This document shows positions 21,315-60,858 of a stretch of DNA of 64,000 nt, one piece after another. The position numbers and the translations under genes are program-made. The notes under the pieces were generated by a model. That model had not been told where the DNA came from, made no database searches, and saw nothing but the letters and a program-made list of their open reading frames with translations. How positions within the stretch are numbered: position 1 is the first letter of the stretch; the number at the start of each line of letters is the position of its first letter. Origin of the DNA: Octopus vulgaris. Lineage: Eukaryota. Where the stretch lies: positions 22,878,001 to 22,942,000 of the forward strand of contig OX597828.1 of assembly GCA_951406725.2 (NCBI GenBank), in the 5' to 3' direction.

Positions 21315-21625
21315 ACTCAGTGGTTAGCGCGTGAAGTTGTGAGTTCGATTCCCGGACCGGTCTGCACGTTGTGTTCGTGAGCAAGACATTTTATTTGCCG
21401 TCGCTCCAGTTCATTCAGCAGTAGAAATCAGTTGTGACGTCACTGGTGCTAAGCTCTATCGGCCCCTTTTGCCTTTCCTTTGGATAACATCAGTGGCATG
21501 AAGATAGGGGACTGGTACGCTTGGGTGACTGCTGGCCTACCATAAACAAATTTACTCAGACTTGTGTCTCGGAGGGGAACATTCTGGGTACAATACTATG
21601 GTCATTCATGACCGAAGGTGGTCAC
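21315..21625 (+). mobile_element. tRNA-derived CORE-type SINE, family C
   Basis: CAGTGGTTAG (A box), GAGTTCGATTCC (B box), core GAGCAAGACATTTTATTT..GCTCCAGTTCATTCAGC.GTAGAAAT. Confidence 0.75.
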
Positions 21626-21626
21626 G

Positions 21627-21800
<174 letters not shown>

Positions 21801-21862
21801 GTATATATATAGCATTATTAAATCTCAGAACGAGATGTAAACAGTAATCGCTCGACAACGTA

Positions 21863-22133
21863 AAGTATAATAGCCATTATATATTTCCATTCAGACTTTC
21901 CCTTTCATCGTGATCCGGTGATTACCGCCCGTTGATAAGAGGCAACAACCTCGAAAGTGTCAGTCCGGTCCGTATCACTTAGGCTTACGAGAAAGGGATG
22001 GCCTCCCCTTTGCAAATACCATAAGGGCACAGATAGTGTGCCTAAAGCCAGCTGGAGACGATGATCTCCTGGGACTAAAAAACTACAGTAACCCCCCCCC
22101 TTTGTGGTTAGCCATATCGAGATGGCTATTATA

Positions 22134-22136
<3 letters not shown>
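21863..22136 (+). mobile_element. Mini-element with 15-bp inverted ends carrying a hammerhead ribozyme
   Basis: AAGTATAATAGCCAT (21863-77) and ATGGCTATTATACTT (22122-36) form a perfect inverted repeat; lies between (TA)n tracts. Confidence 0.65.
21899..21998 (+). ncRNA. Type-I hammerhead ribozyme fold (U3-A8 core variant)
   Basis: ccg-TTGATAA-gagg caacaa cctc-GAAA-gtgtcag-TC-cgg; stem I extended by gtgat/atcac, tcgtga/ttacga and tccctttc/gaaaggga. Confidence 0.7.
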
Positions 22137-22175
<39 letters not shown>

Positions 22176-42689: not shown

Positions 42690-44614
42690 CATTAGAATCA
42701 TCTTTCAATTCTGTTTCTATTTTTGCCGAGTGTCTTTCTGACAACTAGGGTATAAAAATATACTGTATACATTGTGAGAAAATGGGGAAAAAATAAATAA
42801 TTAAAAATTAAACAAATGAAACAAAGGTGTAAAAAAGAAAGAAAGTTCACAGCTACAATGTTCTTCTCTATACGTGTGACTTACCAGTTAAAACAATCTT
42901 TTAAACTTCCTGTAAGGATCATTATTTCCTGAGCTTATTAAATTCCTTTGCCGAGATATTATGGTCACAGGGTTTGCTCATGTCAGTCTATAAACAGACT
43001 TTATTACATTTGTCTTTCACAATATCTGGTTTATTTGCCTTGATGGTCCGGTCTGCACATGCTAGAAGTCTCCTCAGTTATAACCTCAGGGTGGTGCTTG
43101 TACCATTTGTCAGCAGTTTGGATTTCATAATGCCGACACATTATCCAATATAGATATTGGCCAACTCTGTTTTGTATTGATCTGTTGTCTACAGGTGCTA
43201 AAACATCACATTCAGAGATTAGGTGGTCCACTGTTTCTATCCCATCGTTGCAGTATCAGCACTTTGTGTCTAAACCATTTTTCATCACATTGACTTGATA
43301 GCTCCGGGTCAATGAGTTCTGATCTTGGGTAGCCAACATAAAAGCTGCACTCTCTGCATCTAGCCCTGATCTCCGTAGCCACTAATGGGTGTGCTTCTCG
43401 TCTACATCAGCTTATTTGCTACGGGCCACAAATTTGAATGCAGAGGTTTTTGTTCCCACCTATGCGCCAATTGTTCAAGCGCATTTTGCCTTGCTATTGA
43501 TTTCACCTTCTTTGCAACTACATTTGCTGCACTTCCCTCATGCTGTTCAATCTGTGTATTATGCATAAACTCACTCGAAAATGTTTTGCTCTCCTGCATA
43601 ACAGAATGTAGCTTCTTAGTCTTCATGTTTTCAAACAGCTTTAGCTTCCAGTCATTAGATATTTCAAAATATTTTGTCAGTCCAATTGTTGTGGTTTTGT
43701 AGGTTTCAAATTGTATCAAGCTCCGACCTCCTTGAACTCTGGGTAGGTAAAGACGATCTGTGTCTGCCTTTGGATGCTGCACTCTATTGAAAATCAGGAG
43801 CTTACGGATTTTCCTGTCAATCTTTCTTATTTCGCTTATATTCCACTTCAACACATTGAAACTGTAAATAACAACTGGAACTATTAAAGAATTTATAGCT
43901 AACACCATGTTACGAGTATTTAATTCGGATTTTAGGAATGCTCGAAGTTTCGTGTTACACTCCTTCCTGATCTTCTCTATCATACTTGCATGTTGAATTC
44001 CAGAGCCCTCATTTATTCCGAGGTGTTTATAAGTTTATTCCTGGTCGAGATCTTTATAACAGTGTCAACATCAAAATCACTGAATATGAGGTCTTCAGTT
44101 TTCCTTTCAGGAAAGTGGCACATTTATCAAGACCGAATTCCATCCCAAGTCATCACTGAATGCTTTCACTGTACGTAGTAGTCCTTCAAGCTCATTATCG
44201 TCTTTACCATAGAGTTTTAAGTCTTGCATATAAAATAGATGACTTATTTACTTGTCGCCAATTTTATATCCATGCCCTGTATTGTTAAGTTAACATGTAA
44301 AGGGTATTAGGGTTATGCAGAAAATTAAATGTGAAAGTGAATCACATTGGAAAATACTGCAGTCGATATTAATATTTTTGTGTGGTCAGTAGTCCATGAG
44401 AGTGGTATAATTGAAGATTCGCATTTTACATTGACATGTTGTGCTTCAGGAAGCTTGAAATCACAGGAGAAATTTTGAAGATATCCAGCGATTTCATGAT
44501 CCATGAATGCAGTATGTGGTCGAAGGCATTTTTATAATCAATCCATGCAGAACTGACATTTCTGCGTTATCTATGACAGGTCTAAAGGATCATGCGATTG
44601 ATAAAGAGTTGGTC

Positions 44615-60503: not shown

Positions 60504-60858
<355 letters not shown>

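What the first reader, a model, noticed from the sequence alone, without database searches (positions are those of the whole stretch)
21863..22136. 274-bp ribozyme-carrying mini-element with inverted ends in a (TA)n context
Seen: a perfect 15-bp terminal inverted repeat, an extra hairpin at the right end (TAGCCAT-atcgag-ATGGCTA), internal hairpins (GGCACA..TGTGCC), no ORF, and (TA)n close by on both sides. Established: Penelope-like elements carry hammerheads in their pLTRs and often have inverted termini; retrozymes are non-autonomous hammerhead retroelements. Inference: a non-autonomous, PLE-mobilised, retrozyme-like family that looks superficially like a MITE.
Basis: partly seen in the sequence, partly recalled or inferred. 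Interest (0 to 1): 0.72.

Follow-up and report, generated by a model that had tools for sequence, protein, structure and literature searches.

The report
Retrozyme copy with Penelope insertion footprint
This is one damaged copy of a 355-base, protein-less repeat, found about a thousand times in the genome, that carries a hammerhead (predicted self-cutting RNA) motif; its "inverted ends" come from two back-to-back arms that start at two fixed points, likely because a Penelope-type enzyme copied the RNA from both cut DNA strands.

Summary
The motifs are real, but the boundaries and the "TIR" reading are wrong. The insertion spans ~21812-22136: an inverted arm (unit positions 354→289) joined to a direct arm (48→303) of a 355-nt tandem unit. 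The 15-bp repeat is just where the two arms overlap. An internal 21-mer has 1,115 exact genomic hits. The unit carries a type I hammerhead with a U3-A8 core, supported by covariation across sister units 48-64% identical. This copy's helix III is broken. Of 37 two-arm insertions, 30 end once at unit ~308 and once at ~354, and none uses the same site twice. Target-site duplications of 9-15 bp occur in 19 of 39 insertions outside microsatellites. [quoted passage not shown] Cleavage and circular RNA are untested. A ~4,000-copy Helitron variant carries a fragment of the unit. Verdict: new member of the animal non-LTR retrozymes. The scan reported the same architecture earlier on other DNA of this genome.

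The parts
21812..22136 (.). Whole two-arm insertion of the 355-nt retrozyme family; any target-site duplication is hidden in (TA)n
21812..21877 (-). Inverted arm, unit r354 back to r289: starts at fixed start site 2 and contains the ~46-nt 'tail'
   Evidence: L001 1514-1578, r289-353, 98%
21822..21836 (-). Short hairpin in the tail, tip of a long predicted stem-loop of the unit
21877..22136 (+). Direct arm, unit r48-r303, ending at fixed start site 1 (r303-312 in the family); 1-nt overlap with the inverted arm
21863..21877 (+). Left half of the apparent 15-bp 'TIR' (unit r289-303 in the inverted arm); not a terminus
22122..22136 (+). Right half of the apparent 15-bp 'TIR' (unit r289-303 in the direct arm)
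21878..21884 (+). TATA-like box (unit r49-55), candidate internal promoter
   Evidence: sequence; spacing to r78 and clustering of arm 5' ends; function inferred
21900..21920 (+). Candidate transcription-start region (r71-91; r78 = 21907); in other copies, the insertion site of ORF1-only elements
   Evidence: inferred
21929..21968 (+). Type I hammerhead: helix I 21929-31/21966-68 (extends to 21918/21980), core 21932-38 with U3-A8, helix II 21939-42/21949-52, GAAA 21953-56, GUC 21963-65. G21957 cannot pair with G21963, so this copy is likely impaired
22026..22042 (+). Six-pair hairpin kept through compensatory changes in sister units
   Evidence: 3 of 6 pairs with two-sided change
22109..22128 (+). 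Hairpin with a near-invariant GCCA/UGGC stem just upstream of start site 1; candidate RT-recognition element
   Evidence: role inferred
21629..21811 (.). (TA)n target, left
22137..22171 (.). (TA)n target, right

Best explanation
The feature is one two-armed insertion of a 355-nt, non-coding, hammerhead-bearing tandem repeat family (an animal non-LTR retrozyme), likely pasted into the (TA)n tract by the enzyme of a Penelope-like element. Shown: the tandem unit, the copy number, the covarying type I hammerhead with U3-A8 core, two fixed 3' ends about 46 nt apart used once each in two-arm insertions, 9-15-bp target duplications, scattered 5' ends, and no poly(A) tail. Inferred: tandem loci are transcribed, probably from the TATA-like box at r49 with a start near r71-78. 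Hammerheads with a self-complementary helix III would cut mainly as dimers between tandem units. A PLE RT/GIY-YIG protein would make a staggered cut about 12 bp wide in AT-rich DNA. It would prime cDNA from one strand at r~308 (base of the tail stem-loop, next to the conserved hairpin) and from the other at r~354. The two 5'-truncated cDNAs would then be joined head to head with 0-3 nt of microhomology or short fillers. Arms read through the cleavage site, so the template would be an uncleaved multimer or a circle; a circle is not required by my data. The window copy has a private helix III change and is probably a dead relic.
For: Unit and tandem period. Copies: 1,115 exact hits of an internal 21-mer; 59 exact hits of an intact 33-nt hammerhead pattern; 2,032 hits for the superfamily core; reversed-pattern controls 0 in each. 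Hammerhead: 93.7% of 364 cells paired, 7 of 13 pairs with two-sided change, 0 of 500 shuffles reach the covariation score, slid controls <=0.12 against 0.41. Helix III is self-complementary in 70 of 76 occurrences. Ends: 20 of 24 two-arm insertions are mixed, none same-site; in a position-ordered hold-out, 10 of 13 mixed, none same-site. The 361-nt sister family also shows two preferred ends, read by eye. TSD >=9 bp in 14 of 29 non-microsatellite insertions against 1 of 812 mismatched flank pairs, and in 5 of 10 in the hold-out. An empty site proves one duplication: 4,589 Helitron copies hold the 12-bp target once, while filled ones hold it twice. Inverted 5'-truncated copies, a 30-40-bp tail at one end and (TA)n bias are PLE hallmarks (PMC8557442, PMC3846280, passages); tail ends equal RT start sites in vitro (PMC11167929, main text). 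A young RT+GIY-YIG PLE in this genome has a U3-A8 hammerhead, ends in TTTACA like site 1, and has an optional ~40-nt tail.
Against: That PLE shares no alignable sequence with the unit, so no partner is identified. Rfam models do not detect the motif. Covariation rests on about four lineages, and U3-A8 never varies in the alignment. Cleavage is untested, and 8 of 9 Xenopus retrozyme dimers did not cleave in vitro (10.64898/2026.07.22.740005, part 3). Seven of 37 two-arm insertions have an off-site end. A second boundary caller with shorter alignments scored only 16 of 26 as mixed, still none same-site. Twenty of 39 non-microsatellite insertions show no TSD >=9 bp by the automatic caller. Arms of one insertion are hardly closer to each other than to other copies (4.6% against 5.2%), so a single template molecule is not shown.
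Confidence: 0.82

Rival explanations
1. The unit is the solo pLTR or a truncated end of an unseen autonomous PLE rather than a self-standing retrozyme.
For: All insertion marks are PLE-like. Retrozymes resemble pLTRs in Xenopus (10.64898/2026.07.22.740005, part 3). PLE frames lie within 1.5 kb of 4 loci.
Against: Units run head to tail with no ORF between them (L012, L022, L057; five or more units in sister L131). In loci L001-L060 (49 distinct insertions) no PLE frame ends where a pLTR would begin. The pLTR of the one PLE family examined is unrelated.
Confidence: 0.1
2. Same family, but the inverted arm arises by cDNA fold-back, self-priming or template switching rather than by a second priming event at the other nicked strand.
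For: Self-priming was proposed for PLE inversions (PMC3846280, passage). One junction has a 21-nt overlap (L028). The same-template test was inconclusive.
Against: 23 of 24 junctions overlap by 3 nt or less or have a gap. The outer end of the second arm is a fixed unit position downstream of the first arm's start, which a copy of the first cDNA could not contain unless it had run almost a full further unit; the window's direct arm lacks r304-354.
Confidence: 0.12
3. Mobilised by a LINE (L1/Tx1-type twin priming) instead of a PLE.
For: TSDs of 9-15 bp and 5' inversions also occur with L1 (recalled). Tx1-like ORF1-only elements insert into this unit.
Against: There is no poly(A) or repeat tail. 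The second priming site is fixed and lies downstream of the first, not at a variable upstream place. Each site is also used alone in one-arm copies.
Confidence: 0.04
4. A MITE or a Helentron-type (DINE-1-like) non-autonomous DNA element, suggested by the short inverted repeat and the terminal hairpins.
For: A perfect 15-bp inverted repeat and hairpins near both ends in this copy. A fragment of the unit travels in a Helitron.
Against: The inverted repeat is not at the ends and differs from copy to copy. Lengths run from 129 to 1132 bp with scattered 5' ends, tandem units and 9-15-bp TSDs. In the Helitron the fragment is an insertion with its own TSD, and the empty form exists.
Confidence: 0.02

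Closest known systems
Metazoan non-LTR retrozymes (Cervera & de la Pena 2020, PMC7229834: passages and Discussion read; Li, Clavereau & Pollet 2026, 10.64898/2026.07.22.740005: parts 1-3 of 5 read)
   Same: Non-coding unit of 150-450 nt (355), GC 45%, type I hammerhead with a short helix III and palindromic loop, tandem copies, TSD longer than 4 bp, co-occurring PLEs.
   Different: U3-A8 core. Mostly short two-arm inverted insertions rather than long arrays. Two fixed start sites are mapped here. No pLTR relative found. Circular RNA not shown.
EN+ Penelope-like elements: PAc of Anolis (PMC11167929, main text read), Adineta Pen2a (PMC3846280, passages), general structure in PMC8557442 (passages)
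   Same: Inverted 5'-truncated copy, an optional tail at one end equal to the span between two RT start sites, AT-rich or (TA)n targets, TSD of about 8-10 bp or more, hammerhead.
   Different: No ORF. The tail is about 46 nt rather than 30-40. The start sites lie about 170 and 220 nt after the cleavage site.
U3-A8 hammerhead variant of Schistosoma Cercyon PLEs (PMC4209133, part 1 of 4 read)
   Same: U3-A8 replaces C3-G8 in the core.
   Different: Here helix II has 4 bp and helix III has a 2-5-nt loop (canonical-type rather than minimal), and the motif sits in a non-coding tandem unit.

Membership tests
Animal non-LTR retrozyme | Type I hammerhead in each unit | tested here: met
   the family motif is intact (59 exact hits), the window copy has one helix III pair broken
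Animal non-LTR retrozyme | Tandem unit of 150-450 nt | tested here: met
   period 355 in L012/L055, L022, L057; arrays are short in this family, five or more units in sister L131
Animal non-LTR retrozyme | No protein coding, GC under 50% | tested here: met
   longest ATG frame 35 aa, GC 0.448
Animal non-LTR retrozyme | Dispersed copies, TSD longer than 4 bp when present | tested here: met
Animal non-LTR retrozyme | Self-cleavage | not testable with these tools
   needs in-vitro transcription
Animal non-LTR retrozyme | Expression as linear and circular monomers | not testable with these tools
   only contig-level runs were offered
Autonomous PLE / pLTR | RT + GIY-YIG ORF flanked by this repeat | tested here: not met
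   49 insertions and one PLE family examined, not all PLE families
PLE-type insertion | Inverted 5'-truncated arm with a tail at one end | tested here: met
   30 of 37 two-arm insertions
MITE / TIR DNA element | Fixed terminal inverted repeats and fixed length across copies | tested here: not met
Helitron / Helentron non-autonomous element | Fixed termini without TSD | tested here: not met
   variable 5' ends and 9-15-bp TSDs; defining features recalled

The most novel reading that the evidence does not exclude
A PLE protein dimer holds one retrozyme RNA by its tail stem-loop and starts two reverse transcriptions at the two sides of that stem, one on each nicked target strand, so every two-arm insertion takes exactly one of each start site. 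This would explain the long-noted one-sided PLE 'tail'. The unit also carries its own TATA promoter, whose start site is used as a landing spot by promoter-less ORF1-only elements, and a Helitron has spread one of its insertion scars about 4,000-fold.
Probability: 0.45. Interest if true: 0.7.

Novelty: new member of a known kind. Interest (0 to 1): 0.47.

Why it matters
PLE mobilisation of animal retrozymes has been argued from co-occurrence and pLTR similarity. Here the insertions themselves carry the PLE footprint, with mapped start sites. The one-site-per-strand rule gives a direct prediction for the existing in-vitro PAc assay. In practice, single copies of such families mimic MITEs, and copy counts based on the 3' end are inflated several-fold by a Helitron-borne fragment. 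The window copy itself is an ordinary decayed insertion.

Tried and rejected
Rfam: the whole-window scan listed only microsatellite-driven matches among the 150 of 421 shown; the 346-nt region gave 0. The repeat finder was swamped by (TA)n. The count of 4,725 for a 3'-end 21-mer was rejected as copy number: 27 of the first 30 hits lie in a Helitron. Expression: no RNA holder listed. Contigs of four runs labelled organisms A, B and C hold pieces of the unit but cannot show starts, strand or circles. Partner search: one PLE family only, no homology by blastn or by a six-monomer profile. The single-template test was inconclusive overall; one clear case is L024 (6 of 278 differences, 0 of 62 outside comparisons as close). 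Pile-up of arm 5' ends at the cleavage site r135/136: 4 of 59 within r130-139, not convincing. My own first idea of a Helentron-associated element was dropped. A sequence look-up in earlier findings returned nothing. Literature: searches listed no paper describing this family. PMC13282606 (passages) has 0 occurrences of 'hammerhead' or 'ribozyme' in its main text. No supplements were read, and those of PMC7229834, PMC4209133 or the 2026 preprint may list cephalopod units.

Full report
Observation. A search of the window's genome (G000, 2.8 Gb, 227 contigs) with 21800-22140 scored 40 of 4,502 candidates and gave 110 matches. In these, window 21811-21877 matches in the opposite orientation directly after the position equivalent to 22136. 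Numbering the unit on a real copy (r1-353 = L022:1454-1806; period 355), the window is r354→289 inverted, then r48→303 direct. The 15-bp 'TIR' is r289-303, present in both arms. It is neither terminal nor a family feature. The host looks like an octopus from its genome size and microsatellite load, and earlier scan notes say so; I did not test this.

Family. The unit is 355 nt, 45% GC, with no ATG frame over 35 aa, and folds at z -5.63. It occurs head to tail (L012/L055, L022, L057). An internal 21-mer has 1,115 exact hits. Arms differ from the column majority by a median 3.5% and the window arm by 4.6% (60 arms). Sister units of about 360 nt are 48-64% identical, and a shared core pattern has 2,032 hits.

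Ribozyme. The hammerhead is type I, with core U3 U4 G5 A6 N7 A8 A9, a 4-bp helix II and GUC at the cleavage site. On 28 sequences from this family and its sisters, 93.7% of cells pair and 7 of 13 pairs change on both sides. No shuffle of 500 reaches the score, and slid controls fall to 0.12 or less from 0.41. The tool warns that relatedness inflates such counts; about four lineages contribute. Helix III is self-complementary in 70 of 76 occurrences, the arrangement known to need dimers (PMC4209133, part 1), where U3-A8 is also reported in Schistosoma PLEs. The window is the only one of 28 with positions 15.2 and 16.2 unpaired (1 of 57 arms). Three 3' hairpins are kept across 12 sequences, with 9 of 20 pairs changed on both sides; the stem next to start site 1 is nearly invariant.

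Insertion anatomy. The first sample held 52 distinct insertions, after dropping 11 duplicate loci and 27 Helitron loci. Of 24 two-arm insertions, 20 end once at r303-312 and once at r350-353 (the reference end), and none uses one site twice. A second caller gave 16 of 26 with stricter trimming, again none same-site. A hold-out of 20 insertions, taken in genome order from an internal 21-mer after dropping 7 duplicates and 3 already seen, gave 10 of 13 mixed and none same-site; 4 of the 20 held an intact hammerhead. TSDs of 9-15 bp, mostly 11-13, were found in 14 of 29 and 5 of 10 insertions outside microsatellites; the control gave 1 of 812. Junctions between arms show 0-3 nt of overlap or short fillers in 23 of 24 cases. 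These are the features described for PLEs (PMC8557442 and PMC3846280, passages). In PAc the tail is the span between two internal RT start sites, both target strands are cut and extended, and the protein is predicted to be a dimer (PMC11167929, main text). That paper saw no strand difference in start sites; my data add that within one insertion the two sites exclude each other.

Template. Many arms pass through the cleavage site and the r355/r1 seam, so the template is an uncleaved multimer or a circle. Seven arm 5' ends fall at r71-79, among 15 that end between r13 and r102 (one further end at r75 is an inserted element's boundary and was set aside; the window was chosen after seeing the data). 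This lies 22-30 nt after a TATA-like box at r49. Two different ORF1-only elements (30% protein identity, weak zf-CCHC match) sit at r78 with r78-91 duplicated in L032 and L043/L044, and matching junctions recur in L177 and L192. I infer a transcription start near r71-78. L012 (r73 through one further unit to site 2) fits a linear two-unit transcript, so a circle is possible but not needed. The same-template test was inconclusive.

Partner. A GIY-YIG frame near one copy led to a young PLE family (16,791 candidates, 150 scored, 97-100% identical, many with a 781-aa open frame). It has an ORF1, then RT plus GIY-YIG with a CX4CX2C linker (Neptune-like; clade name from PMC8557442 and recall, no tree built). 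Its pLTR holds a U3-A8 hammerhead, ends in TTTACA before (TA)n, and sometimes extends about 40 nt with a short hairpin. These are parallels of motif only; no homology was found. The partner remains unidentified.

Helitron cargo. A 21-mer at r287-307 has 4,725 hits. Of the first 30, 27 lie in a ~390-bp element with 5' TC, a 3' hairpin and CTAG, inserted between A and T. It holds r353→335 inverted plus r245→308 direct, between two copies of a 12-bp target. The empty site has 4,589 hits. One retrozyme insertion, with the same two start sites, was thus amplified by a Helitron.

Verdict. This is a new member of the animal non-LTR retrozymes with unusually clear PLE-type insertion marks; cleavage, expression and partner are untested. 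I reached the two-site reading before consulting earlier findings. They report the same architecture for other units in this genome and a Helitron-borne fragment; one supplied the lead on the start-site target. They are not independent support. Interest 0.47.

Noticed in passing
L061, L063-L078, L080, L081, L083-L090 (e.g. L063 around 1430-1830): A non-autonomous Helitron (5' TC, 3' hairpin and CTAG, A|T target) carries a two-arm retrozyme scar with a 12-bp TSD in roughly 4,000 copies; the empty form has 4,589 hits.
   Followed up: yes
L032:1851-2984; L043:1771 to L044:1472; junctions in L177, L192: Two different 1.1-1.6-kb ORF1-only elements (weak zinc-knuckle match, Tx1-like by recall) inserted at the same unit position r78 with a ~14-bp duplication.
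   Followed up: partly
L121:44-5260 (also L122, L123): Young two-ORF PLE with an intact 781-aa RT+GIY-YIG frame, a U3-A8 hammerhead in the pLTR, repeated CCAAT/CRE-like motifs, (TA)n targets and an optional ~40-nt tail.
   Followed up: partly
L006:1459-1811: One full turn of the unit replaces about 23 codons (including the YLDD region) of an older PLE RT frame, in the same sense and without TSD: an insertion with deletion, or a template switch between PLE and retrozyme RNA.
   Followed up: partly
L105, L127-L156, L044:2660-3030, L085, L123:535-805, L077: At least four sister units (about 358-362 nt, 48-84% alike) with the same U3-A8 core and 3' hairpins; the 361-nt one forms arrays of five or more units.
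   Followed up: partly
L003, L005, L019, L051, L086, L095 flanks: A frequent minimal hammerhead-like motif with U at core position 6 and a CG loop, probably the pLTR of another abundant PLE.
   Followed up: no
window 21315-21628: SINE-like element with a tRNA-type head (B-box-like motif, recalled) immediately left of the (TA)n target.
   Followed up: no
window 60666-60807: Perfect ~142-bp palindrome centred on a (TA)n run.
   Followed up: no
window 43405-44034 (-): 210-aa frame resembling the C-terminal part of a LINE RT (similar to a frame in L014); Pfam gave no RT hit.
   Followed up: partly
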